A stretch of 61,921 nucleotides of DNA, filler included, from Stramenopiles sp. TOSAG23-6 (taxonomy: Eukaryota): NCBI GenBank assembly GCA_900128565.1. It is 4 parts of 4 records of this genome, joined end to end, with 100 filler letters (N's around TTAATTAATTAA, not from the genome) between each part and the next. Parts side by side here need not be neighbours in the genome. Positions count along the whole stretch, not along the records: positions 1 to 15,450 come from LT636115.1; positions 15,551 to 30,968 come from LT636116.1; positions 31,069 to 46,448 come from LT636117.1; positions 46,549 to 61,921 come from LT636118.1. One strand, given 5' to 3'. Of the stretch, positions 6,070 through 61,921 are shown piece by piece; the stretch's first letter is position 1, and each line of letters opens with the position of its first letter. The position numbers were made by a program, and so were the translations under genes. Below the pieces are notes generated by a model that ran no database searches, had not been told where the DNA came from, and saw only the letters and a program-made list of their open reading frames with translations.

Positions 6070-8198
6070 ATGTCAGAGTTACAGTTTATAGTAGATGCGC
6101 TCAACAAGCCGCCCTTTAACGCTGGTTTGTCACTAGTAACTTTTGATGAGAAGAGTCCGTTTGAGTTGCTGGAAACTCTTCAAATGGTTCTAGTTTATCT
6201 AGATAACACAACACATGATGTTGATATCCGCGATGAGCCTCGAGATAGTACATGCTCTCGTATAATGCAATTTTTACACCTCTTGAAGTACAAGTTTCCT
6301 CCAGGTAGAATTGAAGAGTTCAAACAATGTGTTATGAAAAGTAATCGTAACGTCATTTATCCAATGTTGTCGTGGATGTTACAACGACTGGCGCCATTAA
6401 AAAAGCGAGCATATTTGGCTCGATTTCTAATAAACGTAGAAGTCCCTTCCGAATTTTTTCAAGATGAAGAAATCAAAGCGGTACATACACATTACAAGCA
6501 ACTACAAAAACAATTTAAAGAAACCCACAAACAAGTGGACAAACTTCGTTCAAACAATCTTGCACCACAAGAACTCAAGAAAGAGATATCTCAACTTGAA
6601 GAAGAACGTCAACAATTAAAGGATAAAATTTCCCGAAATCAGCGAAAGATGCAATCAAAGGAAGGATTTCAAGAATTACTTGATGTGACAAGTGCTCTAC
6701 GTAGAGAGCAAGAAGAGGAAACAAAATTGCATGAAAGAATGCAAGAGCAGGAACATTTACTGTCGAAGGCCGAGGCTGAATATATGTATGTTTTAATTTT
6801 TTTCAAATTCGTTTTTTTTTTCGTACGAAATTTTGTACCTAACGATTTTTTCAACGGGAACTTCAAGAACTTCGTGAAAGTAACAAAGAACGCATGTCCG
6901 CAGAAGATATGCTCAATGATTTAGAGAGGGAGGTTGCTGAAAGTCGAGCTCTTGTCAAGGAAACTCTTCCAAGACAAATGGCACAACAAACTGAAAAACT
7001 GCGGAGACTTCAGAATGTCATGTCTGAACAGCCAAGAAGTGAAGAAGATGTTCGTCATTTAGAAGCTGAATGTATGTCAACTGAGCAAGATATATCTGAA
7101 CTTAGAAGACAAATATCAAACCAACAAGCAAAATTAGGTGATGATAAATTAGGCATATTTCGTCAACAAGCTGCGTTAGTGGAGCGTAAACTTAAAACAA
7201 AGGAAAAAGAGTGTGAAGATGCTGAAGTTGAAGCTGCGGAACTGCAGACAAAGCTACAAGACAAGGAAGCTATTTTATCGGAGTTAACAGGACCAAAATT
7301 TATGAAACGTGAAGAGTTCAAAAAGTACGCAACTGAATTGAGATCAAAGACAAATAAATATAAAAAGTTGAAAAAAGAAATCGCAGTTATTGCTGCTGAA
7401 ACCGTTACCCTAGACAGAACTGAACAACTTTTACGCAGCCGTGACGAAAATGTTCAAGAATTGCTCGCCAAAATTGAAAAAGAAAAAGGTGTTTCTGGAT
7501 ATATGACTACACAGGATGAATTAGCAAAAGTTTCACAGTTGAAGTCAGCAACAGATCAAGTGAAAGGAAAGACCTTGGAAGAGATTTCAAAAATTGTTTC
7601 AGATATAAATTCTTCGTTGAAGAAACGCAAAGTTCAATTACAACCACAAATTAAGAAATTAAGAGCTGTGCGAAAAGGATTTCGAGAATTAGAGCAAGTT
7701 TATCTACAGAAGAAAGCAACATATGATAATACTGCTGTTGGTCTTGAGAGTAGTAGATTGAAACTAGAGAAACAATGTGCAATTCTTCAAGAAGAAACCG
7801 TACAAGAAGAAAGTCGATATCATCATCTTCAATGTCTTATTGCTGTTGCTTCCTTTCGAATGGAGAGAGTGAAGCAAGAAGAAAAGTTCGCTAAAGGTAA
7901 TGGAAAATTATTACGTGATTTCAAAAACTACACCGAACTATACAATCATAAATTATCATCTCAGGCTTCTATGAGCAAGGAACTACACAAAAGACAGAAA
8001 GAAATAAAAGAGAATGCTTTGGGAAATATGAAGCAAAAAGGAATGTTTGAAGATCTCAGAAAGTTATTAGAAGCAAAAAAGCAAATTGCATTGGATCAGA
8101 AGAATGAGTCAAAGAAAGATGATGTAGATGATGATATTGATATGTTAACTAACATGGGGACAATAGTTGATGGTGCAAATGTAATGACTATCGAATAA
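6070..8198 (+). CDS. IFT81: Intraflagellar transport protein 81 (one family intron from 6786)
   Basis: MSELQFIVDALNKPPFN, LKKRAYLARFL, KGKTLEEISKIV...LQPQIKKLR; frame change coincides with the intron element. Confidence 0.95.
6786..6851 (+). mobile_element. Introner-like intron in IFT81, 3' box missing (probable assembly collapse)
   Basis: AT|GTATGT...TTCGTACGAAATTTTGTACCTAAC then directly coding-frame sequence. Confidence 0.7.
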
Positions 8199-8345
8199 GT
8201 AGTTATTATGGATATGTTTACTAATATCAGAACTCGCAAGGGTGATTAGAGCTTATACTATACAAGTAGAGCATCGTATATGAAAGAAAACGGCAATAAT
8301 AAAACAAAAGTAACTACACAGCATTTTATCAATGAATTTTAAATT

Positions 8346-10589: not shown

Positions 10590-10836
10590 CTTTGATATTT
10601 TTGCTTCCGCAAGAAACTTAAGTTTATTGTTATTTTTGCTGACGTAATCTACAGCACATATACTACTATCAATAAAAAAGAAACGCTTCAATTCCGTAAC
10701 GGTAACGGTAACGCACAATCTTCTGTAGTAGTAGATACAAAAGATATGACATTATATTTGAGTACAGCAATCATAAACAATTAACTAAGAACATATTGAT
10801 AATATCTCACACTGAAGAATAAATTAAGCACAAAAG

Positions 10837-13800: not shown

Positions 13801-14367
13801 TGGATACCAATGGAACCCGATGACATTTATGGTGAAGGAGAAGAACTAGAAGTTTATGTCGAAGATACTGAAGATTTAATTGGAAAACCATGGACATATA
13901 AATTAATGATTCGAAATGCATCAGGCCTTCCAATAACTGCTGATGTATCTTTTGTACAATATGATTTCTTTGGTGAATTGTTCACAACAGAAACAATCAC
14001 GGAGGAAACTGATAATCCCATCTTCAATTACACGTATATACATCATTTAGATGCAGTTACAGATGAATTTATTCAATGGTTGAAAAAACCGATGGAATTT
14101 CATTTACATGTATCACCTGTAGTAAAAGATACTGGAGATGAGATTAGTTCAAAAAATCCACATGTGCATGCTACATTGAGTGGGAAAGTTTCGTCATTTG
14201 CTACAAAATCAGAACTAATCAAAAAGATTAGTAAATTAGAAAATACGAAAACAAAATTGGAAAAGAAATTGTCTTTGTGTGCACAAGAACTGGACCAATA
14301 CAGATCAGGAAAAAAACCAAAAAAAATAGCTGGAGATATTTCAAAAGAGAAACTACTTCAAAAGTGA
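10837..14367 (+). CDS. Kinesin (kinesin-3/KIF28-like architecture: motor, coiled coil, FHA-like, C2-like)
   Basis: KVSVRCRP, AYGLSGSGKT, NHQSTRGH, DLAGTE; PHFVNLDED...YLNG...WDRVVIG FHA-like region. Confidence 0.9.
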   Translation: MSVSIKVSVRCRPFTIDDKLGVQMLQLDENNGEINLINSSYSTNRFGFTYSWWSAYGWKRHCKSNEDIAEDMKLTNQIDCYKACGLKVKADLYDGNAVVLFAYGLSGSGKTFTVFGPDDPAADVAWFKHEDPHDLWGIFPRLGHEIFQDIKDGWKVKLKYFQNIVDVVRDLMDPVGKEQTYKSGMGKDPDGFMDVKWARQKVLADWADLRQTFQTANGRKAIAPTQFNHQSTRGHCIMVLEVEMPKPSDPSTKQRGRVYVCDLAGTEPAGDIVFAKYKTKKYPDGTVEHKFIGAHKDKKKTKELQDQGKKINLSLSEMAQFFMKMAQAIKKKQLKPGKSIPGCNSYFLCKFLKDTMLQARTYLFCAIRPECKYHPYTFSTLGFAKNASVIKLSPKKATVACSPAERKMMKELEKMKQMMAAMSEENEKLQKSGGGGGGDDSAEVARLREELAAAKREKEEDEARLAEMQKNLDKAKAQRASANTTVTDLQAKLAKAEAAGESEKVKALEAELAEAKQKYEEETNEVNKAKEELSAAETKESGGADVAKLEAMLEKEKALAEEAAAANAKAHKADAAMQAAQAQAAETQRKMEEMQKAFEEKQNELRNQMNAEDPNAAERVERERKQKQKREEYAARGIGMVAFEPEESEPHFVNLDEDEYRSERFIFWLKKDENVFGPGGDVRPFSVNTVQGHCTVKRKGKKWTLVGGAGATYLNGKTVPKGKSKSIKAWDRVVIGGDVLQFVIPGVAPNDNKFPAEVAIGEYQSALSEERRKKSGVSAEQEENLLARLAQFEEEKKQWEAKMKAGRGKLSVEEENALREEDRKRRKQMEKLQMQVMNGQIIQLLPKLKELKILTDTMDRGYLSFEAKLLQSHTNSGKLELKVKVHNGNTHEDTLIDTFELDKAYNVLKEEHRNLSIAVENGRDYTVELHHDPVQLLFDNTFHLGTSIIFPEFLLGYMLGTDEEEDEQFVDIKNSMALSKHIGKLEVIWIPMEPDDIYGEGEELEVYVEDTEDLIGKPWTYKLMIRNASGLPITADVSFVQYDFFGELFTTETITEETDNPIFNYTYIHHLDAVTDEFIQWLKKPMEFHLHVSPVVKDTGDEISSKNPHVHATLSGKVSSFATKSELIKKISKLENTKTKLEKKLSLCAQELDQYRSGKKPKKIAGDISKEKLLQK

Positions 14368-15396: not shown

Positions 15397-15450
15397 GTAT
15401 GTTTTATTTTTTTTTCAAATTCGAGTTTTTTTTCATACGAAATTTTGTAC
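15397..15450 (+). mobile_element. Introner-like intron, truncated by contig end
   Basis: T|GTATGTTTT...CATACGAAATTTTGTAC. Confidence 0.85.
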
Positions 15451-15550: not shown

Positions 15551-15605
15551 AACAATTTTTTTTTTTTTTGGTAAAAAAATTTTGAAATATTTTTCCAAAA
15601 TACAT
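15551..15605 (+). mobile_element. 3' part of introner-like intron (AT end)
   Basis: TATTTTTCCAAAATACAT|CTT GTT AAC. Confidence 0.8.
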
Positions 15606-18402: not shown

Positions 18403-18549
18403 TGAAGTTCTTTGTTAAACCTCGTTATTAAAATAAACAAGCACTTAATTTCCTGGTTTCATAAAACATATTTAATAACGAATTGTATAACATCTCTATT
18501 CTTTTTGATTAGATTTTATTATTATTTAAGAGACAATGAAACATTTTAT

Positions 18550-18646
18550 GTAGACATCCAGTTTCTAATTTTTTTGTTTTTTTTTCATAGTAAATTTCGT
18601 ACCTAAAAAAATTATTAAATTTTTAAAATATTTTCCTGAAATACAT
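18550..18646 (+). mobile_element. Introner-like element outside coding sequence (calpain 3' UTR orientation)
   Basis: AT|GTAG...AATTTCGTACCTAA...TATTTTCCTGAAATACAT. Confidence 0.75.
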
Positions 18647-18659: not shown

Positions 18660-20383
18660 CTACATTATAGTACAGTCATCTTTTGACATTGCAGCATCAT
18701 AAGATTTTCGTTTCAACATCCACGCAGGAAAGTCCCATGTATTATGAAAAGATATTTCAAAAATTAAAATCGTTAGGTACACATTTTCGTATGAAAAAAA
18801 AAACTAAATTAAAAATTCATGATGGAAACGTACATGGCGATTTCGTTTCATTTTTTACTGAAGACTTTTTAAATATAGAATATTCAAAATCTGCTAATTC
18901 CATTAAAAATGTTCTATTGGGGTCTATTATCGGCCGTCTTCGAGCTATATATTTATATGCTGCTTTAAGGTATTTATGCTCCTCCGACATCATAAATTAT
19001 GAAAAAATATTTCAAAAAAATACTAAAATTTGTTAGGTACAAAATTTCCTATAAAAAAAAATTATGAAAAAATATTTCAAAAAAATACTAAAATTTGTTA
19101 GGTACAAAATTTAGTACGAAAAAACAATTATGAAAAAATATTTCAAAAAAATACTAAAATTTGTTAGGTACAAAATTTACTATAAAAAAACAATGTAGAT
19201 AAAAAATTGAAATGAAAACGCACATATATGCTAAACAACAACTTGCCGAGCGTGACACACCTGCTCGACAATGCACTAGCACTTTTCCCTGTGTCTGTCT
19301 CACATTGCATATAAATTCTATTGCTTTAAGAAAATGTGGTTTAATGTTTTGTGTTACAGCGTCATCTACAGCAATTCTCATATAAATAAAATCATTTTCA
19401 TGTATTTTGGAAAAATATTTCAAAATTTTTTTTTGAAAAATTTGTTAGGTACAAAATTTCGTACGAAAAAAAAACTTTCCAAAAAAACTTTCCAAAAAAA
19501 AAAATTAAATTTGTTAGGTACAAAATTTCGTACGAAAAAAAAAATAAAATAAAACGTACATGATAACACGGAATGTCTCTTGTTACATTTAGAATGTGCG
19601 TAATACCAATTTGTTTTAATTTTTTAAAACCTAACGCATCATGTCTATCTCCTAAGTACATGAATGTTCTTATCATGTATTGTATAAGAAAAAGAAATAT
19701 AGTAAAACATTTGTTAGGTAGACATTTTTATATATAATGAAAATACTCAAAAAAAAACTTTTTTGTTTTTTTGTTAGGTACAATATTTCGTATGAAAAAA
19801 AATCTACTCAAAAAAAAAAATCTACTCAAAAAAAAAAAAAAAAAAGTTTGTGTAAGGTAAAATTTTGTATGAAAAAATATATATAATTCATAATGTAAAA
19901 CTACATGGACGGTTTATCATAGACAATTCCACCTCGTACAAAATTAACAATCTCCGCTGGCAATATTTTGGATTCTTTATATCGTTGAATTATTGTTCTT
20001 TTTCTATTTTTAGGGTTAGGGTTTCTATGTATTGGTGTTGATATTTTCTTTATTTTTTTTCTATCACTCTTACTTGATGTTGCTTTTTTCTTTTTAATCA
20101 TTTTATGATGTCGAACTTTTGGTGAATGTTTTTGTCCTGAATGTTTATTTGGTTGTATCGTGTTTTTTTTTACAGTAGATAATGATACACTGTACCTTCG
20201 ACCAATTTGACTGCTGCCTCGATTACTTTTACTATTGTTTTTCTTTACAGTAGATGATAATATAGGTAAACTATTTGCTCGCCGAAGCCTATTTTTTGTA
20301 TTTTTTGTATTCGCCATACTATCTTTAGGTAGCATATTCAGCACAGAACGGCTCTTGGAAAGCTTTACTGCACGTTTCGACAT
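18660..20383 (-). CDS. Dual-specificity phosphatase with basic N-terminus and C-terminal CTIM (exons 20383-19905, 19674-19560, 19399-19224, 18991-18834, 18736-18660)
   Basis: Spliced product PSMIRTFMYLGD...GITHILNVT...VHCRAGVSRS...AYMM...RRPIIDPNRTF...CTIM*; requires four GT-AT introns. Confidence 0.9.
18737..19904 (-). mobile_element. Four GT-AT introner-like introns in DUSP: 19675-19904, 19400-19559, 18992-19223, 18737-18833
   Basis: Each has a GT donor, 1-3 core/branch modules and an AT end; removal restores the DSP motifs. Confidence 0.88.
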
Positions 20384-23053: not shown

Positions 23054-24065
23054 TTACATATTAATACTTGAACTTTCTTTTAGTAAAGTATTCATTGATA
23101 CTTTAAGCTTTAATAACTCTGCTTCTTTTTTTTCAATCATTCTTTCCAGTTTTCTACGCTTTACAGATCGTCTGGATCTTGATTTGTCTGTATTGTGAAA
23201 AAATATTTAAAAAAAAAAAAAATGTTAGGTACAAAATTTCGTATGAAATGATTTTTTTTTAAATTTTTGTTAAAAAACATACATCTATCCACCATTGTAC
23301 ACAAATCAGGCCCAACGATGCCTTTAGAACTACTAAGTGGTATTTCATATGCTTCATCGGCGTTAAATGGTTTAATTTTATGATCTTTTCCTAAAATCTC
23401 CGGACAATGTATTTTGGAAACATATTTCAAATTTTTTTTTACCAAAAAAAAAAAAAAATTGTTAGGTACAAAATTTACTATAAAAAAAAAAAAAAAATCG
23501 ATTTTTTTGTAAAAAAAAAAAATAAAACAAACATGCAATGTGCCCTCACTAATAGATTTAATGCTATACAACAAATCATATGCTACTACTTCATTTATAG
23601 TGGAATCCTTCTTATATTTCGGATGTTCAGACACGAATTTCCGCATCCATGCTGCATTTGTGAGAAGCTCCCCAGTAGCCCTCATGACAATAAATTCCAA
23701 ATATTTGTTTACAGTAAGTCTAGTGGTATGTATTGTGAAAAAATATTTTTTTTGTTTTTTTGAGATTTTTAATTTTTTTTGTTTTTTTTTGTTAGGTACA
23801 AAATTTCGTACGAAAAAAAAAAATTAAATTCAAAATTGAAAAAAATGTAACATACACTATCACATTTGATGGTATCTAAATAAGCATGAATCAGAGGAAC
23901 AAAACCAGGGAAGAAGTTCCCTTTTCCAATGAGTATTTCGAGAGCAGTCATTTCAATTGAGCCATCATGTATTTTGGAAAAATATTTAAAAAAAAAATCT
24001 AAAAAAAATCGTTAGGTACAAAATTTCGTACGAAAAAAAAATTCGATTTTTTTTTTTTTTTTACC

Positions 24066-24096
<31 letters not shown>

Positions 24097-24724
24097 AAAC
24101 GTACATGGTCACTATGTATCGCACATTTTTTTATTCCTTTTTCCGATTTACATTCATTTTCAGATGGAGGCGCTAAATGTTTACGAAACCAAAATTTTTC
24201 TTTATTCACTGCATCAACGTTATACAATGTAGAAAAATATTTTTTTTGGTAAAATTTGTTAGGTACAAAATTTCGTATGAAAAATGTTTTAATTTTTTTT
24301 TTTTAGGAAAAAAAAACTACATGCGCTCTTTTAAGACTTTCATCAATCTTTGATATTGGTATATACATATTCAAATCGAATGCAAGAATAACACGAGATA
24401 CAAGAACTACAAAGACAGTAAATGCAGCATTTTCAAAGTCTGTTATTTGAGCTTCCATTGGTCGAAATTCTGTTCGCCATCCAATGTGATGATGTTTTTT
24501 CTGAGAATTCGTGTTTTCTTCATCCTCTGAATTATTTTTTGTTTTTTTTCGTTTTCTATTTTTTTCTACATAAGAGTCAACTGAAGAAATATCATCATCA
24601 GAATGATGAGAAGGAGTCGTTGGAGGTGAATCAGGCATATGATTGTTGTTCGACGCTGGTGGAGGTTTCCAACGGACAGTTTGCCAATTTGTAGACTGAA
24701 TATTTTCCCATGTATTGTGTAGAA

Positions 24725-24768
<44 letters not shown>

Positions 24769-26180
24769 TCGTTAGGTACAAAATTTCGTACGAAAAAAAT
24801 GTTTGGAAAAAAAAAAAAAAACATACAGTGATCAGAGTCTCGCTCGTCGTCTAGCTCAACACGCTCTTTAAACACAACTAATGGATCCCGGACGAAAAGA
24901 TGAGCAATATGAGCGGCTAAAACATCATCAACGCCACCTCGTTTCAACTCCTCTTTCACGTCTTCATCAATAGCAACTGGTACATCATTATAGCATTCAC
25001 TACATGTATTGTGAAAAATATTTTTTTTTTTTTGATTTTTTTTGTTAGGTACGGAATTTCGTACGAAAACCAAAAATAAAAATTAAAAAAAAAAATAAAA
25101 CATACATGAATGGATGTCTTTTCCTGCTTTATGGTTACATATAAAATGCGAAATAGAATCGTATCTAGACTTGTACAGACGTTTTTCACCAAATCCTGCC
25201 ATTTCTTTTTTAGATTTTGTTCCATTGAGTTGTACTGCAGGTGGAGAATGACTTCGAATAGCGGAGCAAGAATCACCAGCATAAATGCCACTCTCTTCAG
25301 GTGTGCGATCATCAACACTAGCAGCAATATAACGCCATCGAGCATCCGTATTGAGTAATTTCCCGCGCATGATAGGACATGCTGCTGTTAATGCCAACAT
25401 GACTGGAGCAAATACTGCTAAAGCATCATACAAATGGCGGGACTCTTGGATATCACAACATTGAAAAGTAACCTGCAGGCAACAGCAGCCCATGCCAAAC
25501 GCCATACAGTCCATGTGCACTTGACGATCACTTGGTGGAGTATTCGTATCTCGAAATACTGGAGCAGTAATATTTACACGACTACCTCGACGCATTCTAA
25601 TATTTTGTGTTAATGTTTTGAAACGAGGGTGAGGATTAATACACTCATCCGGAACATAAGCAGATTTTGAGTATTGACCAGGGACTTGTGCCTTGGGTAC
25701 TGTAAAGTCACCAACACCTAATAGCGGAAAGGCAACGGTAGATATCGCTGATTCATTGGGACGTAAAACTTTGATAAGTCGATTACGACGATTACGCATA
25801 TTACGTTCTACTGCAATGAGATCACTTGTGTAACCACCGTATGCAGTACGTGGTGTTGCTTCAACCATCCATGAACCGTATTCTACATGCCAGTTACACT
25901 CGCCCAGTAGAGCATCTTCTCTACCTCTTTGATTCTCCATGGTAGATAGTTCTTCAATTATTTCATGAGCACGTAAAGAAACGCGCACGCGCTTTTCTTC
26001 GTGGTCAAAAGCAACGATGTGATATTCAACTTCGTCACCCCACATAAGCACATCACCTTTGAGATTACGCATTCTACGCCAAATTGTCAAGAACTGTTGA
26101 ACACCGTGCTCACGAACATACTTTATCACGGATAGAGAATCATTCCATGGTAATGGAGTCCCTGTTTCAAGAAAACCCAT
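23054..26180 (-). CDS. GCLC: Glutamate-cysteine ligase catalytic subunit, 8 exons
   Basis: MGFLETGTPLPW, WGDEVEY, MDCMAFGMGCCCLQVTF, KSRYDS, ENIQSTNWQT, GWRTEFRPME; stop 23054 after removing 7 introns. Confidence 0.95.
23188..25105 (-). mobile_element. Seven introner-like introns in GCLC: 25004-25105, 24710-24826, 24222-24320, 23967-24104, 23728-23855, 23407-23532 (GT-AT) and 23188-23282 (GT-AG)
   Basis: Shared core TACGAAATTTTGTACCTAAC; removal gives HSCSECYND, DHWENIQ, RAHNVDAV, SDHDGSIEM, DSTTRLTV, LHCPEILG. Confidence 0.9.
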
Positions 26181-27994: not shown

Positions 27995-29114
27995 ATGTCG
28001 GAAGTCGGAGTTGCCGCTATCACCAAGTCTTCAGATCCATATTACGGGGCGCGAGATAGTATCCAAGTGTCACTTCTCGATGCTGAGCGGAACTGCAGTG
28101 AGTTACAGTCTCTACTGAGTTCTTTACAATCATCTTCGAGTTCACGAGATACTGTTGTCCCAAAACTGAACTCAGCATCATTGCAAAGTGCCAAAGAAAT
28201 GACTACATCGATATGCTCTGAAGTGGCTCATTTAGAGGTTTCTCGTCAGGAGCTTTCTCGTGCAGTCTCGATGGCAAAAAAAGTAGAAAAGGAAGAAAGC
28301 AATGAAAAATTTCGTCATCTGGATGCCTTGGAAATTAGTACCCGTGAAAGTTTCATGCGTGATTTGAAATTTCGAATTGAAGAAATGAATCATGTACTTG
28401 ATAAAGCAACTACATTCCTCGATGCTGCCGAGGAATCGTTTACATCGGGTGGAGTACAAGATTCATTTGCCAATAAACATTTCAATGCATTGAAAACAGT
28501 CAGTCATAAAAACACGATAAACAGCAATCATAGTAATAATAGTACCCATATGCATTCTTCTTCCCCGTATGGAATATTTGATAAAAAGATAACAATGGAT
28601 GATTGGGATGATGAAGAAGAAACTTCTGGACTCATTCCTGTCATGACAAAAGACCATCGTCGGAATTTATTTGGACATGTTGACACGTGTATGTTTTCAT
28701 CATGAATTTATGAATTTATTTTTTTTTTTATTTTTTCGTACGAAATTTCGTACCTAACGAATTTTTTCCACCCATTTTTTTTTCCACAGTACATCTGATT
28801 CACACTTAGCTGTAGGTGGAGGACGTCAATGTATTGTCGATTTAGAGATGCAGCAAAATGAACATTTGAGTAAAATGTCTGATGCTCTACATCGTATTGG
28901 TGGTTCTGCATTAGCCATTGGAATAGAGCTCGATGAGCACAAGAAAATTGTGGATACCCTTGAAGACGACGTTGATACAACACAGATGATGATGGATCGA
29001 GGCTTAGGCAAAGTGAAGGATTTGTTAGATACCGACTCAAATTGTCATATCACCATTATATTTGCTCTCATAGCCATTGCAATACTTCTTATTATAGCAA
29101 TAGTTTTTTATTAA
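27995..29114 (+). CDS. Qc-SNARE, syntaxin-6/10/61-like, 2 exons
   Basis: DPYYGARDSI N-terminus, SNARE motif QNEHLSKMSDALHRIG...IGIELDEH, C-terminal TM. Confidence 0.85.
28689..28794 (+). mobile_element. Introner-like intron in syntaxin (GT-AT; in-frame GT-AG alternative 28687-28789)
   Basis: GTATGT...GTACGAAATTTCGTACCTAAC...TTCCACAGTACAT. Confidence 0.8.
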
Positions 29115-30914: not shown

Positions 30915-30968
30915 GTATGTTTTATATGAATTTCTAATTTAATTTTTTTTTTTTGGTTTTCATACGAA

Positions 30969-31068: not shown

Positions 31069-32713
31069 AATATTTCAAAAAAAAAAAACTTAAATTTGTT
31101 AGGTACAAAATTTCGTACGAAAAAACATCCGAATTTGAAAAAAATAAAACATACATGCTTGAGAATCAATAATATTTTTACATAAAATAGTTTTTGTGTT
31201 TTTTGTAGTATTGCAATTATCAAGTTGAATCATATTTGTATTATCAGACATTATATTTTTTTCATTGTTTGTGTTTTTTGTAGTATTGCAATTGTCAAGT
31301 TGAATCATATTTTGATCGCCATTCCTAAAATGACGCTGCGTACGCAAAAACTCTTGTGCTATATCAGGTTGTTCAAATCCATCAATTTGTTTCTTTTTAC
31401 AATCCGGGCAAGTAATGTGAAAAATATTTTTGTTTTTCGTTAGTAAAAGAAATTCGTTAGGTACAAGATTTTCATACAAAAAATAAAAAAAAATTAAAAA
31501 TGATGAAAACATACAAAACCAATCGCCTTTGGGTAAACTAACGAGAATTGGTTGTAAACAAAACATATGAAACCCTCTATCACATTTATCACATAAAAGC
31601 AGTGAATCATCGTCGCTATCATGTATTTTGAAAAATATTTCCAAAAAAAAAACTTAAATTTGTTAGGTACAAAATTTCGTACGAAAAAAAATCGATTTTT
31701 TTGTTTAGGTACAAAATTTCGTACGAAAAAAAATCGATTTTTTTGTAAAAAAAAAAAATAAAACATACATCTACAATTTTACATATATGACATTTCGCTG
31801 CACCGAACGCCAATTCTAAGAGAGCAAATTTCACTGGATTTCGTGCGAGTTTTGGTAATGATTTTTTTACCATTTTGGTTAACTTTTCGGTTTGATCATC
31901 TGATCGAATCACTTTTTTTAATTTTGGTCCAATTCGAAATTCTATATTTTCAGGATTTTTCATTGGTTTTTGATTCTGACTAAAACTAAAACAAAAATTT
32001 CTTTCTTTGTGCCATCTTGAAATCATTTGAGAAATTTGATTTCGTCTAAGAGTTACTTCGATTTCAGTAATATCAGGTGGGCCAGGTACCCTTCCTCGTC
32101 CATTGCTACTTTGTATTGTGTCATATATCTTTTGTTGTTTTTGATCATATATCTTTTGTTGTTTTTGATCATATATCTTTTGATGTTTTTGATCTTCGGT
32201 CCATCCGTCTATATCAATTGTGTAATCGTCACATACAAAAACTTCAGCAAATCCATTTGTTTGACGAGGTTTAACAAGTCGCCAATTATAGAAATAACGT
32301 AGTGCTGAATGTGAGAAATATTCAGAATTTGCAAAATTATGCGAAAGAAGACAACCATCTGCATAATCGACAGTATACTTTTGGTTACCGTGGCTTGCGA
32401 TCACTCGACCTACGTACATGTATTTTGGAAAAATATTTCAAAAAAAAAAAACGTTAGGTACAAAATTTCGTAAAAAAAAATAAATTCGAAATTGAAAAAA
32501 AATAAAACATACCAACATTTTTCTGCAACCCAATGTACACTAACAACATGGTCAAGAATATTCAAAACATCTTCTCCAGAACAATAACCTTCGGACAACT
32601 CTCTTTTTTGATACTCGACACACGTACTGTGAAAAAATATTTCAATTTTTTTTTGTTAGGTACTAAATGTCGTATGAAAAAAACATTACATTAGAAATTC
32701 ATATAAAACATAC
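31069..32713 (-). mobile_element. Introner-like introns in Tudor/PHD gene: 32622-32713 (GT-GT), 32418-32512 (GT-AT), 31621-31768 (GT-AT), 31410-31514 (GT-TT), partial 31069-31154
   Basis: Shared core and 3' box; removal restores Tudor WY.G and PHD cysteine spacing. Confidence 0.87.
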
Positions 32714-34911: not shown

Positions 34912-34933
34912 TTGATTGGCCTGATTGGCCAAT
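34912..34933. promoter_or_regulatory. Clustered CCAAT/ATTGG boxes in divergent promoter
   Basis: TGATTGGCCTGATTGGCCAAT between divergently transcribed genes. Confidence 0.45.
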
Positions 34934-35144: not shown

Positions 35145-38100
35145 ATGCCCAAACCTACCACTGAATCGCTCTTCTATGATGTTGATGCACTTCGGTCTGA
35201 TGATTTTCCTCACTTAAACACAGAGATATATGCAGATTATGCAGGTGCTACTTTACCAGCAAGGTCTCAGGTGACAGCAGCAACACGTGATATTCTTGAG
35301 TATCCCTTTGGTAATCCTCATTCACGAGGACCAGCTTCCCAAAGAACATTGTCTCGTGTACAGCGAGTTAGGGAAATGGTACTGGAGTACTTTAATACAT
35401 CATCCGACGATTACTCTGTAATATTTACCGCTGGTGCAACGTCAGCCCTTAAAATGGTTGGGGAGTGTTATCCTTGGAGTAAAGAGAGTAATTTTTTTTA
35501 CTTAAAGAATAGCCACAATAGTGTCGTAGGTATACGAGAATATGTACTCAAAGCTGGCGGATCTTTCAAGGCTATACATCCGTATGAATTATTTACTGAA
35601 CATGATAATACAATTGAGTCTGATCATCAGAATCCCAACTCCAGTTTTCATAAAAAAAAAAAAGATAAATGTAGCAGTAATTTAGTGGCATTTCCCGCAG
35701 AATGTAACTTTAGCGGTACGAAATATGACTTAAGTGTCATTCATTCTATTCAAAATGGTAACATCTCTAAAAGAAGTTCGAATATTTGGGGAAGTGGACG
35801 GTGGCGAATTTTACTCGTATGTCTCATGTATTTTTGTAAAATATTGTACAATTTTTGATTTTGTTTTGTTACGTACAATATTTCGTATGAAAAAAATATT
35901 TTTTTTTAACCTACGTCTTTACCATTTGATTTCAAATTTAATTTTTTTTCACAGAAAATTTTGTATTTCATGTTTTTTTTTTGTGACATATTTTTCACAG
36001 CACTTGATGCTTCTAAATATATTTCAACGAATACTTTAGACTTAGAGAAATATTCTCCTGACTATCTCGTGTTTTCGTTTTATAAATTATTTGGATTCCC
36101 TACAGGTATCGGTGCATTATTAGTAAAGCATGATGCTGCACAAGCTCTATGTCAAAATCAAGTGTATTTTGGTGGAGGTACTATTCTTAGATTAGGTTCA
36201 GAGGGATCAGAGTTATCTTCTCTACAGCGTAAATCTGCAATGAATGAACGATTTGAACATGTATGTTTTATTTTTTTTCAAATTCGATTTTTTTTTCATA
36301 CGAAATTTTGTGAACAATAAATTATAATGCCATTATAGAACTTGAGCATGGATTTGTGTTTCTTACGTCAATTTTGAAGTATCTCAATACAAACAAATTG
36401 CTTGATGCTCAAAATGATGATTATCTCAATGCATATAAAACACAAAGTACAACAATGGATAAAACAAGAATTGATACAAACCAAAACGACACAACAATGG
36501 ACAAAACAAGAATTGATACAAACCAAAACGACACTTTACAACGAATAGCAAAATTGGCAAAAACAGCAATGAAACTAGTGAATCATCAAACATTTACTCT
36601 TGCAACGTTTTTATGGTCACAAATGACAAATTCTTCATTTCAACATTTCAATGGAAATCCAGATACGTTTTCGAAATTGAATTTTTTACCTAAATTTTGT
36701 TCTATTCCAAATTTCGTACCTAATGAATAAAACCAAAAAAAAAATATTTTTTCATAATATTGGTTGTGTTATCTATGGATGGTCAAAAAAAGTAGTACAG
36801 TCACGGATGCAAGGACCAGTGATTACTTTTAACATTATTGACCATCGAGGATTCTTTATTCCGTGTACGTTTTTATCATTCATTTCCATTTTTTTTTTCG
36901 TACGAAATTTCGTACCTAACAATAAAAACTCAAAGAAAAAAAAAATTCACATTACATATACACAAGTAGAAGAAGTACTAAATAAATACAAAATTCAAGT
37001 ACGTAGTGGGTGTTTTTGCAATCCAGGGGCGTGTACGTTTTCGTTTCAATTTCGATTTTTTGTTCGTACCAAACTTTGTACCTAACGAAAAATTTAAATT
37101 TAAAGTTTTTTCACAATACATGCCAGATATTTCTGAATCTTTCGGATGATGACATTAATGCTCAATACAAAGCTGGACATGTTTGCGGTAGTGATATTGC
37201 AGTAGTGAATGTTTTATATGAATTTCTAATTTAATTATTTTTTCATACGAAATTTCGTACCTAACATTTTTTTTTTTTTGAAATATTTTTTCACAATATG
37301 TAAATGGTATGCCTACCGGTGCAATTCGTATATCTCTAGGATCTACAAGTAACATATCAGATTGTGAATTTATAATTTCAATATTACGAAAATATTTTCT
37401 TGTCAAGAAAGATCCAAACATTCGAAATTCTTTCGAGACGAAATTTGGTACAAAATTTGGTACAGATTCAACAAAAAATGTACAAAAGAGTAGTGAGATG
37501 GTTAAAGAGCTTTGGATATATCCTATAAAATCATGCTCCGGAATACGAAAGTCATCTTGGCCTATAACAGCAAAAGGCTTTTTACTTGATCGTCATTGGG
37601 TCATCATTGAAGAAAAAGAAAACAATCTATTCACAGCATTGACACAAAAGAATTGTCCACGAATGTGTATGTTTTATTTTTTTTCAAATTCGATTTTTTT
37701 TTCGTACGAAATTGTGTACCTAACAGATTTTTTTTCAAAATATTTTTCTTAAATACATGCTTAATCCAACCAAACATTCAATTGAGGTATAAAAATAAGC
37801 AACATAATACATTTTGTGGTATCCTTCAGTTGTAGATTTTCATTATTCGTTTCCTTTTTTTTTCATACGAAATTTTGTACCTAACAAAAAAAACATTTTT
37901 TTTGACCAATTTCGAATTTCTCAACTTTTTTACAACACAGGGATGCACCAGGAATGCCTACTTTACATATACCAATATCACAGCTTGGTATTTTAAAATC
38001 ATCAATCAGTAATGCACAAGTGGAATGTGGCACTGAGCAAATTGGAAATTTCTTAGGTACGAAATTTGGTACAGATTCAATTTCGAATAATAGCTTATGT

Positions 38101-39172
38101 TTGAATAAAGCTATTGTATGTGGCAGTCAGCAAAAGATTGAATTTGTCCCAGATGCAGAGAAACAAATTTCAGATTGGCTCTCAAATTTTCTTGGACTTA
38201 CCTCTGTTTTTCTCGCCATACAACCAGAAAAATCTTTTCGAAATTTTGCAAATACAAGAGGTACTATCCTTCTTATCGGCGAAAAGAGTGTGACAGATGT
38301 ACGTTTTCATGATGAATTAAAAAAAATTTCGTACAAAATTTTGTACCTAACATTTTTTTTAGTAAAAAAAAATATTTTTTCACAATATATATACGAAACC
38401 ATGACTCTATCAATAATATACCAAGTGATATATCTGAGTCATCAGTAGGTACTACATCACGATTTAAGAACTTATCTCCACATCGATTTAGGCCTAATAT
38501 TATTATTTCATCTAATACAAAAAATGTACTTTTTCATTATGAATTTCAATTTTTTTTCCATAAAATTTGTTGTACCTGATAACAACCTAATAACAACTTT
38601 TGTATTTTTAACTTTTTTACAGTACATGCGTCTTTTATAGAGGATTCTTGGAATAAAATTTTAGTAGGAAATGTCTTACTAGATTTCGTGTCTCCATGTA
38701 TGTTTTCATTTCAATTTCGTTTTTTTTTTCGTACGAAATTTTGTACCTAACAATTGTTTTTCAAATATTTTTCAAAATACATGCAATCGATGTAGAATGG
38801 TAAATATTGACCAAACCAATGGCAAAGAATCCCCTGAATTACTCATTGTACGTTTTCAACATTGAATGTCGAATTTATTATTTTTTTCATAGAATTTTTG
38901 TTTTCTCTAATGAATTATTTTAGTAAAAAAAACATATATTTTTCACAATATTTACTCTGTCGAGGTATCGAAGGCAAAAATACAAAATCTTATTTGGGCA
39001 CTTGATGAAAATAAATGAAAGACACCATTTGGATATTGATAGAAAAACTTACCAAAAGAAGAATGGTGAATCTGATATTTTAGAAAATTTTGATTGTTCA
39101 AATATTATTTGTGAAAATACTTGTATAAAAATTATTGAGAGAAGGCGCCCACCGGCTTTGTCATTATTATAA
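35145..39172 (+). CDS. MOCOS: Molybdenum cofactor sulfurase (NifS-like + MOSC domains), 13 exons
   Basis: YADYAGATL, GNPHS, FPAECNFSG, SFYKLFGFPTGIGAL, RSGCFCNPGAC, IYPIKSC, RFRPN, CNRC; continuous after removing 12 introns (intron 2 junction damaged). Confidence 0.93.
35817..38953 (+). mobile_element. Twelve introner-like introns in MOCOS: 35817-36005 (TT end), 36261-~36311 (truncated), 36663-36762 (AT-TG), 36865-36957, 37033-37121, 37207-37301 (GA-GT, or GT-AT at 37205-37299), 37667-37758, 37832-37940 (AG end), 38299-38390, 38526-38627, 38698-38782, 38848-38953 (TT end); unlabelled ones are GT-AT
   Basis: Shared motifs; removal restores conserved MOCOS motifs at each junction. Confidence 0.87.
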
Positions 39173-39255
39173 TACTAAAAAAAAAAGTTTATTTTGTTTA
39201 ATGCATTAACTAAAACCCTAGACGTTTATTATAGAATCGATGCTATAAAAAAATA

Positions 39256-46966: not shown

Positions 46967-47252
46967 AAAATATTTCAAAAAAAGTGTTAGGTACAAAATT
47001 ATCTACGGAAAAAAAAACAGGATAACCCGAGGAATAAAAGTCTCGCGAGAATGCATTATGGTCATCGAAAGTATACTTTGAGGCTATTTAAATGCTCAGT
47101 GATGACTTGGTCTAAGTGTATGAAGTTCATGACAAAAAAAAAGAAGTCATTCTATGTATACTTGAGGTGGCTATTTCGGCTATTTCAAAAAAAAAAATTC
47201 CTATTTTTTTGTTTTTCGTACGTAATTTTGTACCTAAGAGATTTTTTTAAAA
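46967..47252. repeat. Inverted pair of introner-core sequences (possible MITE-like element)
   Basis: TTAGGTACAAAATTA..TACGGAAAAAAAAACAGG and CCTATTTTTTTGTTTTTCGTACGTAATTTTGTACCTAA. Confidence 0.55.
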
Positions 47253-47447
47253 GGTTGAGCAAATTGAGCCATCGGGACACAAAACTGCTCAAAAACAGCT
47301 CGAATATTCAATATCTCTCTGTATGTGTAACGGTTACAACGTGAACGAAGGGCAAGTACATATAGGTACTTGTATACGGTACCAAATAAAGGTATCGTGT
47401 CGTTGATTAAACTGTTTGAAAGAGTGATATACCGCACAAAGAACCAA

Positions 47448-59600: not shown

Positions 59601-61865
59601 ACTTCAGCATTAGTATCACCAATAATCAAACAATTATTTCCAGAACTCACAGCAACCCTGCCATTGCCAGATATACCTACACATGATTTTCTATTGGCAT
59701 ATTCATTAGCATTTTCTGATTCTATGCCATTCTTCAGAGGATTTCCTGTGAGCATAAATCCAAACACTAAACAACTATAGATAGATGGGAAAATGCCAGA
59801 TTCAAAGGTTTGTTTCATTAAAATCATTAAAATAAGGAAGTATGAAGAATACCTACTCAGAAACCAGGTTGTGCATATCACAAAACATTCCACACAAATC
59901 AAAGGAATATGTAGCAACTTTTGCCATCTTGACGGGTCTTCTTCTTTCTTTAATTTGGAAGTAACTGGAGGAGCATCCTTTTTAATATTCTCCGTGTTGG
60001 ATTCAAAGGATGTTTTATCCGTGTTGGATTCAAAGGATGTTTTATTTTGGATCTTTTCCTCGGCCGAATCTCTTTGCAATGGCTGTTCAAAATTACCATT
60101 CCACGAATGCTTATCTGGAGAAATGTTTATTTGGTCTTCACCTACATGTAATCTATTTTCGTATGTTTTTAACAATTTTGGAACCAATGAAACATTGGCT
60201 TTAGTATTATTTTCAATCTTTTGTGGGGAATATATTTGTTGTGTACTATAAGTTGATATATGACTCTTAAGGAATGACATAATTTCACGATACTTGAAAT
60301 CAATGTTTGTAATTAATTGATCCCGTAGGCATTTTCCACGATAAAGATTGTTGCGACCAATGTGTATTCTCTGATATTCCTGAAACCTGAACTTGCCTAT
60401 TAAATTCCCCAAATACTTATTTTGGAAAATTGCATGAATAATGAGCAATAGACCAAAGATAATGATATCACAAAAAAGCTGAGGAGTATCGTATAGTTTT
60501 AGTGTTGTACATGATTGACAATGAGATTTAGGGTTTTCCGGACAAAAATCATCACCACTACAGTATTCGTAATCCAAATTCTTACACAATCCCAACAAAT
60601 TTATATATGAAGTCATTGAGACACAAGCACATGAACGAAACAAGCCAGGAATGTTTGCAACCCCCATTCGAAGAAAAATTAAAAGTATATTATAACCCCA
60701 TAGCCATGTAAAAAAATGCCGTCGCCCTCCATAAGAACTTTCATCCATGAAAGAACCATAGTTGTAGTTATTTGTAATCAGAGTGAAAGGAAACACTATA
60801 TATATTACAGAGAGTATGTTGAATGATGCAGCACCAAATGCAAAAATAAGAATAAGAATTATGTGAGGTAAAACTTTGATAGTAAAAGTTACCAACACAG
60901 ACTTCAAAGATTTCCAATTTATCTGGTGTGCGAGAATAACATCATCATTACCAGTAAAAGAGCCCTGTGATACCCGGTTATTTAAATAATTCATCATTTG
61001 TTGAACTCTGATAGATGCTTCAAACGACATTTTACTGGAGAAAATACACCCTCTTGATTCAAGTGTTGAAATACTCTTCCTTCCATGAGCATTCGCATAA
61101 AGAAGAATCGTTAAAGCTAAAAAATCGAATCCCAAATTAGTCTGAACAGGCATTGAACCTATCCATATGTCCCATATTCTATTATCCAAAGTTCCGTCAC
61201 TATATACGTCTAATTCATTGTCACCAAATGACAAAACTAAAAGTGTAGCTACATACTGCCACAACATCAAAACTAGAATAATAAGAATCATATTACTTGC
61301 ATTTTTCAAAACATAATCACGGGTTTGCAAAAGGCAATACACTACCATACAGAAGAAAATGACTCCTATTAAATTAGAGTGTACATATACACAAATTATC
61401 AAAGAAAATACGATTAAATCTACTGTCCAACGTTGAAATAAAAATCTATGATTCACAAAAATATATGCATGTCTGGATATAGGTTCTGTCTGAGGGGTGG
61501 TACTCGGAAATTTTGAAATTGAATCCTTACCAATTTTAGTACCCCACGAATTTCGACTTTTCAGGGTGCCTCCCTCCTCTATTATGGGTGTAGTTTTAGT
61601 CGACTCTACATTATGATTTGATGTTTTATTCATTATTACATAATTTTCTTGTTTTTGGAAAAATGGCAATGTATTGTATTCTCTGCTCCAATGTTCGCAC
61701 ATACAAAGATAAACACAACAAGTCAAAAACAAAAGTTGATCTCTCAAGTTTACGAAATCTGTTAATGGCCAATCAAGACGAAAATTCGACCTGCCAAGAG
61801 ATTGTACGAGAAAATTCGACTCGTCAGATTCCAGGAGGGCACTTGAGTATACATTACAAGCCAAC
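53645..61865 (-). CDS. Piezo-type mechanosensitive channel, 5' partial, with inserted WD40-like and DEP-like domains
   Basis: ERVIYL, SLQIAYGYP, APFVPQICIIIDWACSTTTLYWGEWNKLQEI, KKIFMG...ILAPLFVYS; 4-TM repeats; preceded by a family intron ending AT at 61866. Confidence 0.85.
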
Positions 61866-61921
61866 ATGTATTTTGGAAAAATATTTCAAAATTAAATTCG
61901 TTAGGTACAAAATTTCGTATG
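61866..61921 (-). mobile_element. 3' part of introner-like intron (AT end), truncated by window end
   Basis: CATACGAAATTTTGTACCTAAC...TATTTTTCCAAAATACAT|G. Confidence 0.85.

What the first reader, a model, noticed from the sequence alone, without database searches (positions are those of the whole stretch)
6786..61921. Introner-like intron family spliced without a 3' AG (predominantly GT-AT)
Seen: more than 30 copies of one element across all four contigs, always in the host gene's sense orientation when inside a gene, with GTAYGT donor, TACCTAAC branch-like motif and 3' box TATTTTTYCAMAATAY-NN. Of 27 complete coding copies, the boundary that restores frame and conserved motifs ends in AT (19), TT (3), GT (2), TG (1) or AG (2), usually with no AG nearby. 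Known: U2 introns almost always end in AG, U12 AT-AC introns start ATATCCTT (not seen here), and transposon-derived non-canonical introns are reported in Fritillaria and Amoebophrya. Inference: this lineage has a spliceosome with relaxed 3' dinucleotide recognition, and a mobile intron family exploits it. I know of no description of a GT-AT-dominated system, but I cannot search.
Basis: partly seen in the sequence, partly recalled or inferred. Interest (0 to 1): 0.95.

Follow-up and report, generated by a model that had tools for sequence, protein, structure and literature searches.

The report
Mobile introns spliced without AG
A marine protist (MAST-3 stramenopile) carries a very high-copy family of look-alike introns that start normally with GT but are cut out after AT (or another base plus T) instead of the near-universal AG, which public gene models of this organism have missed.

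Summary
One about 85-230 nt element occurs about 37 times on all four contigs. Its parts are GTAYGTTTT, a T-rich spacer, a conserved core ending in TACCTAAC, an A/T spacer and a ..CAMAATAC box plus 2 nt.

Of the 26 complete copies in coding sequence, all lie in the sense orientation.

Removing exactly "G of GTAYGT to box+2" restores the frame in 19 of 19 informative copies with well-defined ends. It gives gap-free alignments to GCLC, MOCOS, DUSP and PHD homologues. GT-AG alternatives are absent or at least 7.6 bits worse, except at one intron.

One polyA metatranscriptome contig joins 37665|37758, a 92-nt skip. That fits GT..AT and excludes AT-AC and AG there.

AGs lying between the branch motif and the 3' end are ignored in 10 of 23 copies.

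The host is a MAST-3 stramenopile, and its public gene models read through or mis-splice these introns. I found no published GT-AT-dominated system.

Weak points: RNA proof covers a single junction, no snRNAs or splicing factors could be examined, and mobility is inferred from copy number alone.

Verdict: a real new variant of introner and non-canonical splicing, of high interest.

The parts
6786..6857 (+). Truncated copy in the IFT81-like gene: GTATGT donor and core, but no 3' box. The 3' end is unresolved.
15397..15450 (+). 5' half of a copy at a contig end, in the enoyl-CoA hydratase-like gene.
15551..15605 (+). 3' half of a copy at a contig start; ends ..ATACAT.
18509..18646 (+). Degenerate copy on the strand opposite the DUSP-like gene.
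18737..18833 (-). DUSP-like gene intron, GTACGT..AT, 97 nt.
18992..19223 (-). DUSP intron with three tandem cores, GTGCGT..AT, 232 nt.
   Evidence: In frame. Pfam DSPc profile runs 94, split codon, 96 across the junction.
19400..19559 (-). DUSP intron with two cores, GTACGT..AT, 160 nt.
   Evidence: In frame. DSPc profile about 33 to 37 across the junction.
19675..19825 (-). Copy GTAGAT..AT, 151 nt, upstream part of the DUSP gene.
   Evidence: frame test not informative
23188..23282 (-). GCLC intron 7, GT..AG at the box+2 position.
23407..23532 (-). GCLC intron 6, GTTTGT..AT, 126 nt.
   Evidence: rank 3 of 510; best GY..AG 14.8 bits lower
23728..23855 (-). GCLC intron 5, GT..AT, 128 nt.
   Evidence: rank 2 of 473; no in-frame GY..AG
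23967..24104 (-). GCLC intron 4, GTACGT..AT, 138 nt.
   Evidence: Gap-free against 4 of 10 homologues. The profile scan does not decide (rank 100 of 493).
24222..24320 (-). GCLC intron 3, GTAGTT..AT, 99 nt.
   Evidence: rank 1 of 484
24710..24826 (-). GCLC intron 2, GT..AT, 117 nt.
   Evidence: rank 1 of 541; no in-frame GY..AG; the AT-AC register loses an invariant His
25004..25105 (-). GCLC intron 1, GT..AT, 102 nt. An equal-length GT-AG alternative exists at 25101-25000.
   Evidence: 82.4 against 81.8 bits: undecided
28689..28794 (+). Syntaxin-6/SNARE gene intron, GT..AT, with an unused AG 5 nt before the end.
   Evidence: An in-frame GT(-2)..AG alternative is not excluded.
30915..30968 (+). 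5' half of a copy at a contig end.
31069..31154 (-). 5' part of a copy at a contig start, in the PHD-finger gene.
31410..31514 (-). PHD-finger gene intron, GT..TT, 105 nt.
   Evidence: Joining restores the canonical W-F-C-P-D-C end of the PHD finger.
31621..31768 (-). PHD-finger gene intron with two cores, GT..AT, 148 nt.
32418..32512 (-). Intron GT..AT, 95 nt, same gene.
32622..32713 (-). Intron GT..GT, 92 nt, with an unused AG 5 nt before the end.
35817..36005 (+). MOCOS intron 1, GT..TT, 189 nt. Composite: holds the antisense copy. The AG at 35999-36000 is not used.
   Evidence: rank 1 of 515; best GY..AG 7.6 bits lower
35826..35914 (-). Antisense copy nested in MOCOS intron 1.
36261..36325 (+). 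Truncated copy, MOCOS intron 2. The 3' end is unresolved; 36325 is a guess from the frame.
36663..36762 (+). MOCOS intron 3, ATACGT..TG (or GA..TT after a 1-nt slide), 100 nt.
   Evidence: In frame; no homologue cover.
36865..36957 (+). MOCOS intron 4, GT..AT, 93 nt.
   Evidence: rank 5 of 501
37033..37121 (+). MOCOS intron 5, GT..AT, 89 nt.
   Evidence: rank 1 of 506
37205..37301 (+). MOCOS intron 6, 95 nt: GT..AT (37205-37299), which gives the same product as GA..GT (37207-37301).
   Evidence: rank 1 of 400
37667..37758 (+). MOCOS intron 7, GT..AT, 92 nt; the junction is seen in RNA.
   Evidence: table 8, run X10 record 2.
37832..37940 (+). MOCOS intron 8, GTAGAT..AG, 109 nt.
   Evidence: The RNA contig stops aligning at 37832.
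38299..38390 (+). MOCOS intron 9, GT..AT, 92 nt.
38698..38782 (+). MOCOS intron 10, GT..AT, 85 nt.
   Evidence: rank 2 of 520
38848..38953 (+). MOCOS intron 11, GT..TT, 106 nt, with a degenerate core.
   Evidence: rank 1 of 425
46968..47257 (.). Two degenerate copies in an intergenic stretch (about 46968-47076 minus strand, 47201-47257 plus strand).
61866..61921 (-). 3' part of a copy at a contig end, in the Piezo-like gene; ends ..ATACAT.

Best explanation
These are spliceosomal (U2-type) introns of one very high-copy introner family in a MAST-3 stramenopile. Each copy brings its own yeast-like 5' splice site (GTAYGT) and its own branch motif (TACCTAAC, at the end of a conserved core of about 25 nt that holds a 12-nt palindrome). 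The second splicing step cuts at a fixed place, 2 nt after a conserved 3' box (..TTTTTYCAMAATAC). The intron therefore ends in A-T in most copies and in T in 23 of 26. AG dinucleotides upstream of that place are passed over.

Shown here: the family exists; the exact removed length is fixed; the boundary is compatible with GT..AT; AT-AC and AG are excluded at several junctions; one junction is spliced in RNA.

Inferred: the spliceosome does the cutting; the 3' box, not an AG, sets the cut site; the family spread by transposition into a preferred CAT|G context.
For: 1. Family.

2. Frame test: with the rule 'G of GTAYGT to box+2', 21 of 23 informative copies join the two flanking long ORFs in frame. 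The two misses are a copy that spans a contig gap and a truncated copy whose 3' end was mis-called. With well-scored ends the result is 19 of 19, against a null of 1/3 each. In 18 of the 26 copies the length is not a multiple of 3.

3. GCLC: the rule-spliced model aligns to 10 homologues with no indel at junctions 1-3, 5 and 6; at junction 4 it is gap-free against only 4 of the 10. It scores 1013 bits against a 40-homologue profile, while the public annotation of the same gene scores 861.

4. Junction scans: every donor within +/-18 nt was combined with every acceptor within +/-36 nt, giving 400-541 distinct peptides per junction. The rule ranks 1-5 at 11 of the 12 non-AG junctions tested; GCLC intron 4, in a variable loop, ranks 100. 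The best GY..AG choice is absent (4 junctions) or 4.4-20.5 bits worse (7 junctions), and at least 7.6 bits worse everywhere the scan decides. Only GCLC intron 1 is close, at 0.6 bits.

5. Pfam continuity: the DSPc profile runs 94, split codon, 96 across 19223-18992. The PHD finger ends correctly across 31514-31410, which is a TT end.

6. RNA: a polyA metatranscriptome contig (X10 record 2, 217 nt, 0 mismatches over the 200 nt laid) joins 37541-37665 to 37758-37832. By the 92-nt skip can be read as TG..CA, GT..AT or TA..TG, but not as AT-AC, GT-AC or anything ending in AG. The contig also stops aligning exactly at the next donor (37832).

7. Orientation: 26 of 26 complete coding copies are in the sense orientation.

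8. Unused AGs: 10 of 23 copies have an AG between the branch motif and the 3' end that is not used.
Against: Only one junction is seen in RNA: one contig, depth 4.9, one run.

Element sequence is itself abundant in the RNA libraries. Word depth runs into the hundreds to thousands in element bins, against about 0-10 in exon-only bins. Retention, lariats or contaminating DNA cannot be told apart.

Protein evidence fixes the removed length but leaves +/-1-3 nt of register open at most junctions.

GCLC intron 1 has an equally good GT-AG reading. The introns at 28689 and 32622 have in-frame GT..AG alternatives that no homologue could test.

No snRNA, U2AF, Prp8, Slu7 or Prp18 could be inspected.

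No ordinary GT-AG intron population was found in the window for comparison.
Confidence: 0.75

Rival explanations
1. The same excision, but in another register: the true ends are TG..CA (the typical 5'-TG..CA-3' of a DDE transposon), one base to the left, or another shifted pair, rather than GT..AT.
For: At the RNA-proved junction TG..CA and TA..TG fit as well as GT..AT. The base before the element is T in 21 of 26 copies and the last base is T in 23 of 26, so a 1-nt slide is possible in 19 of 26 copies.
Against: In 7 of 26 copies no leftward slide is possible. If all copies are cut in one register relative to the conserved ends, only register 0 is shared by copies that slide only left and copies that slide only right. 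G+1 (25 of 26) and T+2 (25 of 26) are better conserved than the preceding T (21 of 26). GTAYGT is the classical U1/U6 site. The AT-AC register changes an invariant His at GCLC intron 2 (4.1 bits lower) and contradicts the RNA contig.
Confidence: 0.08
2. Removal is not spliceosomal. The ends are brought together by RNA structure, or recognised by an endonuclease and a ligase, as proposed for euglenid and diplonemid nonconventional introns.
For: The 3' end is not AG. The ends are complementary over 3-4 nt (GUA(U) with (A)UAC; the +1/-3 pair can form in 26 of 26 copies). In 2 of the 6 copies folded, the minimum-energy fold pairs the ends.
Against: The complementarity is only 3-4 bp. Fold z-scores range from +1.3 to -2.8 with no shared structure. 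The consensus fold is -1.5 kcal/mol with no compensatory pair. The strongly conserved GTAYGT and TACCTAAC are textbook U1/U6 and U2 targets, which nonconventional introns lack (abstracts of PMC6221363 and PMC3935182 in the listing).
Confidence: 0.07
3. The introns use cryptic GT-AG pairs, as the public gene models assume, or are simply retained and translated.
For: GCLC intron 1 has an equal-length GT-AG alternative (81.8 against 82.4 bits). 8 of the 26 copies have lengths divisible by 3, and several are open in frame. The public models P0001 and P0121 were built this way.
Against: At 4 of the 12 scanned junctions no in-frame GY..AG exists within the window. At 7 more it costs 4.4-20.5 bits, and at least 7.6 bits wherever the scan decides. 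Retention puts 30-45 low-complexity residues into invariant GCLC blocks and costs 152 bits overall. In 18 of 26 copies retention would shift the frame. The RNA contig shows precise removal with no AG.
Confidence: 0.04
4. The elements are cut out of the DNA, like ciliate internal eliminated sequences, and the RNA contig reflects an element-free somatic copy.
For: The elements are short, A/T-rich, very numerous and precisely removable, and they interrupt coding sequence with a repeated (C)AT at both junctions.
Against: The strict sense orientation (26 of 26) is expected for RNA splicing and not for DNA excision. An independent seawater DNA run (X3) carries element-containing contigs, for example records over 35869-36278. 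None of the 15 joints listed for it is an intron-sized skip at an element's own ends, although 409 more joints were not shown. Nuclear dualism is not known in stramenopiles (recalled).
Confidence: 0.02

Closest known systems
Introners (Micromonas, Aureococcus, dinoflagellates and others; survey PMC9860276, passages read)
   Same: Many near-identical short introns sit at unrelated sites. They are A/T-rich relative to exons. Each element brings some or all of its own splicing signals, and removal restores the host reading frame.
   Different: The introner families in the passages I read are described with GY 5' sites and AG 3' sites, and they were found from annotated introns. Here 24 of 26 copies end without AG. 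No copy-specific target-site duplication could be shown, and the terminal inverted repeat is only 3-4 bp.
Fritillaria borealis non-canonical introns (PMC13326754, abstract and passages read)
   Same: Spliceosomal removal of introns whose 3' end is not AG, 3' AU among them. The cited work discusses a likely transposon origin. It proposes divergent U2AF paralogues as the adaptation, which is a testable lead here.
   Different: There about 95% of introns escape GT/AG at both ends, with diverse ends. Here the 5' site and the branch site are fully canonical and only the 3' dinucleotide departs, in one uniform way. The organism is a protist, not a chordate.
Amoebophrya introner elements and non-canonical introns (PMC7789003, passages read)
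   Same: A marine protist in which repeated intronic elements with non-canonical borders have spread through the genes.
   Different: Amoebophrya elements have 8-20 nt inverted repeats that form hairpins and 3-5 nt direct repeats, no dominant dinucleotide pair, and no detectable U1 snRNA. Here there is no hairpin, the motif is a strong U1-type GTAYGT, and one 3' pattern dominates.
Euglenid and diplonemid nonconventional introns (abstract starts in the listing; PMC12621601 passages)
   Same: Introns lacking GT-AG that are nevertheless removed precisely. Short repeats at both junctions make the borders ambiguous.
   Different: Those introns lack U1 complementarity and rely on extensive end-to-end pairing, and their mechanism may be non-spliceosomal. 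Here the 5' site and branch site are canonical and end pairing is 3-4 bp.
U12-type (minor) introns
   Same: Known to tolerate several terminal dinucleotides (recalled). The branch motif here, ACCTAAC, faintly resembles the U12 branch consensus (recalled).
   Different: The 5' motif RTATCCTT is absent from all copies: 4 window hits against 4.17 expected, none at a copy's 5' end. The branch-to-3' distance is 30-64 nt, whereas about 10-26 nt is the recalled range for U12 introns.

Membership tests
Introner / introner-like element | Many introns of similar sequence at non-homologous positions in unrelated genes | tested here: met
   About 37 copies in 62 kb. They sit in GCLC, MOCOS, DUSP, PHD-finger, SNARE, IFT81, ECH and Piezo genes. 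About 10,600 contigs of one seawater DNA run match the 15-kb stretch, mostly at elements.
Introner / introner-like element | Copies are removed from the transcript as introns | tested here: met
   One RNA junction, 19 of 19 in the frame test, and 15 junctions fitted to homologues or profiles, of which 3 stay undecided (GCLC introns 1 and 4, and the first DUSP junction).
Introner / introner-like element | Signs of transposition (target-site duplication, terminal inverted repeat, empty sites) | tested here: inconclusive
   The flank consensus is CAT|..|G, but within-copy matches do not exceed shuffled partners except weakly at -2 (p=0.04). The terminal inverted repeat is 3-4 bp. No empty site was available.
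U2-type GT-AG intron | 5' GT with a U1/U6-type hexamer | tested here: met
   GT in 24 of 26 copies, with GTAYGT-like hexamers.
U2-type GT-AG intron | Branch-site motif upstream of the 3' end | tested here: met
   TACCTAAC, or a variant one or a few bases off, in 25 of 26 copies, 30-64 nt from the 3' end. Actual use as the branch point was not tested.
U2-type GT-AG intron | 3' terminal AG | tested here: not met
   AG in 2 of 26 copies. AG alternatives were rejected at 10 of the 12 scanned non-AG junctions; GCLC introns 1 and 4 stay undecided. The RNA junction also excludes AG.
U12-type intron | 5' RTATCCTT and a branch site 10-26 nt from the 3' end | tested here: not met
Hairpin-type non-canonical introns (Amoebophrya, euglenids, diplonemids) | Extensive pairing of the intron ends (inverted repeat of 8 nt or more, or a stable structure) | tested here: not met
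   The Watson-Crick run at the ends is at most 4 bp. There is no shared stable fold.

The most novel reading that the evidence does not exclude
In this lineage the 3' splice site is not read as a dinucleotide. It is measured from a conserved intronic box: the cut falls 2 nt after ..CAMAAUAC whatever those 2 nt are (AU, UU, GU, UG or AG), and upstream AGs are ignored. The measuring could work through pairing of the intron's first bases (GUA) with the UAC of the box, or through a retargeted U2AF-like factor. One introner family carrying this signal makes up essentially the whole intron complement of the genome, in thousands of copies.
Probability: 0.3. Interest if true: 0.9.

Novelty: new variant of a known kind. 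Interest (0 to 1): 0.8.

Why it matters
The 3' AG is among the most constant signals in eukaryotic gene expression. The known large-scale departures (Fritillaria, Amoebophrya, euglenozoans) change both intron ends and are hard to interpret. Here only the 3' dinucleotide has changed. The 5' site and the branch site stay textbook, and the change is uniform across a huge, nearly identical intron family. That makes this a clean natural experiment on how the second catalytic step chooses its site.

It also shows that introner surveys built on GT/GC-AG annotation can miss whole families.

There is a practical consequence too. The public MAST-3 gene models carry read-through intron peptides or are truncated: P0001 loses 152 bits against a GCLC profile, and P0121 is 457 aa against about 800 for its homologues. 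This affects phylogenomic and functional work on these abundant uncultured grazers.

Tried and rejected
- **Whole genome:** not held, so snRNAs and splicing factors could not be searched. Rfam at gathering threshold finds nothing in the window.
- **More RNA evidence:** the single read-laying run showed one clean spliced contig. The 15 joints listed in table 5 are dominated by repeat-induced chimeras, and 409 further joints were not shown.
- **Transcript-derived proteins:** a third protein search with GCLC exon 3 gave no match above 51% identity over the whole exon.
- **More copies from public collections:** the exact core pattern gave 0 loci in genome contigs and 0 in viral contigs. It gave 1 locus in JGI metagenome contigs (L001, one copy with CAT|GTATGT..ATACAT|G).
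- **Target-site duplication:** no copy-specific signal.
- **Hairpin or end-pairing model:** not supported.
- **U12 reading:** rejected.
- **AT-AC reading:** it gives the same product as GT-AT wherever the exon ends in AT (13 of 26 copies). It is rejected at the RNA junction and at GCLC intron 2.
- **Ordinary intron in the DHHC gene downstream region (5380-6080):** none found. I saw no non-family intron in the window.
- **Left unresolved:** the 3' ends of the truncated copies at 6786 and 36261, GCLC intron 4 by profile, and the copies at 28689 and 32622 against in-frame GT..AG alternatives.
- **Supplements:** supplementary files of papers are closed. Supplementary tables of PMC5778133, PMC9860276 and PMC12130899 might hold intron statistics or MAST entries that I could not see. 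My look-up in PMC12130899 failed on a term format and was not repeated.

Full report
**What the window is.** The window is four contigs joined by N spacers, and no whole genome is held for it. Overall G+C is 28-44%. The genes are eukaryotic: Piezo, kinesin, calpain, CCDC113, GCLC, IFT81, Gar1, DHHC, enoyl-CoA hydratase, a SNARE, a PHD-finger protein, a DUSP and MOCOS. The best protein matches are two EukProt models labelled GSMAST32. P0001 has exons nearly identical to the window's GCLC, with 12 mismatches. P0121 matches MOCOS. Next comes an Incisomonas transcript at 52%. The host is therefore a MAST-3 (Nanomonadea) stramenopile. Runs that hold the DNA are a small 2015 data set and seawater metagenomes.

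**The family is real.** TACCTAAC occurs 32 times against 1.15 expected, and the 3' box 13 times against 0.24. A profile of the core gives 38 hits at E<0.01. Aligned copies share three conserved blocks separated by homopolymer-rich spacers of variable length:
- GTAYGTTTT at the 5' end;
- a core of about 25 nt that holds the palindrome TTTCGTACGAAA and ends in TACCTAAC;
- AAATATTTTTYCAMAATAC followed by 2 nt.

Some copies carry two or three tandem cores. Five of the eight contig ends fall inside a copy. In one seawater DNA run 10,648 contigs matched the 15-kb stretch I laid. Summed word depth was 1,400-14,000 in element-bearing bins against about 0.2-15 in most bins without an element. Such depth cannot be read as a copy number, but it shows a very large family.

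**Where the introns end: frame test.** I located the ends of each copy with position weight matrices. I then asked whether removing 'G of GTAYGT to box+2' joins the dominant upstream and downstream ORFs. Of 35 candidate end pairs, 23 were informative and 21 of those were in frame. The two misses are a pair spanning a contig gap and a truncated copy with a mis-called 3' end. Two of the 21 hits are not trustworthy copies. With well-scored ends the result is 19 of 19, against a chance rate of 1/3 each.

**Where the introns end: homologues.** For GCLC (7 introns) the rule-spliced protein aligns to 10 homologues without any indel at junctions 1-3, 5 and 6. At junction 4, in a variable loop, it is gap-free against 4 of the 10. 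I then scanned every donor within +/-18 nt against every acceptor within +/-36 nt, using profiles of 40 homologues each for GCLC and MOCOS.
- The removed length is fixed exactly: 102, 117, 99, 128 and 126 nt in GCLC; 189, 93, 89, 95, 92, 85 and 106 nt in MOCOS.
- The rule ranks 1-5 among 400-541 peptides at 11 of the 12 non-AG junctions. GCLC intron 4, in a variable loop, is undecided.
- The best GY..AG choice is absent at 4 junctions and 4.4-20.5 bits worse at 7. It is at least 7.6 bits worse wherever the scan decides.
- Only GCLC intron 1 has an equal GT-AG reading, and that is the one the public model used.
- Pfam coordinates add two junctions. DSPc runs 94, split codon, 96 across the three-core intron 19223-18992. 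The TT-ending intron 31514-31410 restores the final Cys pair of a PHD finger.

**RNA.** One contig of a polyA metatranscriptome (X10 record 2) joins 37665 to 37758 with no mismatch, and it stops aligning at the next donor, 37832. The 92-nt skip can be placed as TG..CA, GT..AT or TA..TG. It cannot be AT-AC, GT-AC or any AG-ending intron, and an AG 3 nt after the branch motif is not used. This is the only junction I could see in RNA. Element sequence is also plentiful in the RNA libraries, so I cannot say how efficient splicing is.

**Anatomy and mechanism.** The 5' ends are GT in 24 of 26 copies. The 3' ends are AT 18, TT 3, GT 2, TG 1 and AG 2, and one GT end is equivalent to GT..AT after a 2-nt slide. 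The last base is T in 23 of 26, and every copy, including the two AG copies, ends exactly 2 nt after the box. Branch motif to 3' end is 30-64 nt. Ten of 23 non-AG copies hold an unused AG in that interval, nine of them at least 10 nt from the branch motif. Three copies have an unused AG 5 nt before the end.

The cut site therefore follows the box and not the first AG. I take this to be U2-type splicing with ordinary 5' site and branch recognition and an altered rule for the second step. The conserved GTAYGT and TACCTAAC, and the strict sense orientation (26 of 26), argue for the spliceosome and against DNA excision.

A structure-guided mechanism is not supported. End complementarity is 3-4 bp, single-copy folds have z-scores from +1.3 to -2.8, and the consensus fold is -1.5 kcal/mol with no compensatory pair. 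Still, the +1/-3 pair can form in 26 of 26 copies (G-C 20, G-U 5, A-U 1), which is a lead for how the 3' end might be docked.

**Origin.** Exon flanks read CAT|element|G: T at -1 in 21 of 26 copies, and G after the element in 17 of 26. Within-copy repeats do not exceed shuffled partners, except weakly at -2 (p=0.04). A fixed 2-3 nt duplication and a target preference therefore cannot be told apart. Mobility is inferred from copy number and from insertion into unrelated genes.

**Literature.** The following searches found no such system:
- MAST-3, introns and non-canonical;
- introner, non-canonical, splice sites and stramenopile;
- the MAST single-cell genomics paper and relatives;
- 'GT-AT' and 'GU-AU' intron or splice phrases (7 papers hold a term, 6 were listed, and all are incidental by title and abstract start);
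- Incisomonas, Nanomonadea, MAST-3 and introner.

The MAST single-cell paper (PMC5778133) mentions introns only in its methods. The Incisomonas genome paper (PMC12614181) has no occurrence of intron or splice. The introner survey (PMC9860276) describes GY-AG families found from annotated introns. The closest systems differ as set out under Closest known systems.

**Verdict.** This is a new variant of a known kind (introners; non-canonical spliceosomal introns). It is directly testable with existing marine metatranscriptomes, and it has immediate consequences for MAST-3 gene models.

Noticed in passing
window 15450, 15551, 30968, 31069, 61921: Five of the eight contig ends break inside an element copy, so the family is what fragments this assembly. 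The spacers between contigs carry an artificial TTAATTAATTAA tag.
   Followed up: yes
P0001 (GCLC) and P0121 (MOCOS), against window 23100-26180 and 35178-39050: The public EukProt GSMAST32 gene models translate through in-frame elements or pick cryptic GT-AG pairs. P0001 carries four long and one short low-complexity insertions, plus a deletion at junction 3, and scores 152 bits below the GT-AT model. P0121 is cut to 457 aa.
   Followed up: yes
window 18992-19223, 19400-19559, 31621-31768: Some copies hold two or three tandem repeats of the core-plus-spacer unit and still appear to be removed as a single intron.
   Followed up: partly
core of every copy, e.g. window 37693-37724: The core holds a perfect 12-nt palindrome (TTTCGTACGAAA). 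Its CRTAC is complementary to the 5' splice site GTAYG (15 of 17 copies can pair at the variable position, with no significant covariation). Its function is unknown: it could be a protein-binding site in DNA or a 5'-site/branch bridging helix in RNA.
   Followed up: partly
window 35826-35914 (minus strand), inside 35817-36005: An antisense copy sits nested in a sense intron that has its own GTATGT donor and a box-like 3' end (..CACAGCAC+TT). The AG inside that box is out of frame and unused.
   Followed up: yes
window 36663-36762: This is the only copy with A at +1 (ATACGT). It also has T instead of C at -3, which keeps the +1/-3 pair. It is a single event and not significant.
   Followed up: partly
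window 31069-39276, runs X6, X9 and X10: Element sequence is very abundant in metatranscriptome contigs (1,468, 1,647 and 163 contigs laid). This suggests retained introns, stable excised introns or carried-over DNA.
   Followed up: no
window 39256-44271 (minus strand) and 48991-51021 (minus strand): Two long intron-free ORFs (1671 and 676 aa) have no Pfam family.
   Followed up: no
whole window: I found no intron that is clearly outside the family. Long genes (Piezo 2746 aa, kinesin, calpain) are otherwise intron-free, so the family may be most of the organism's intron complement.
   Followed up: partly
L001 2466-2586 (minus strand): The only JGI metagenome contig with the exact core carries one copy with the same CAT|GTATGT..ATACAT|G junctions, in a different host sequence.
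   Followed up: partly
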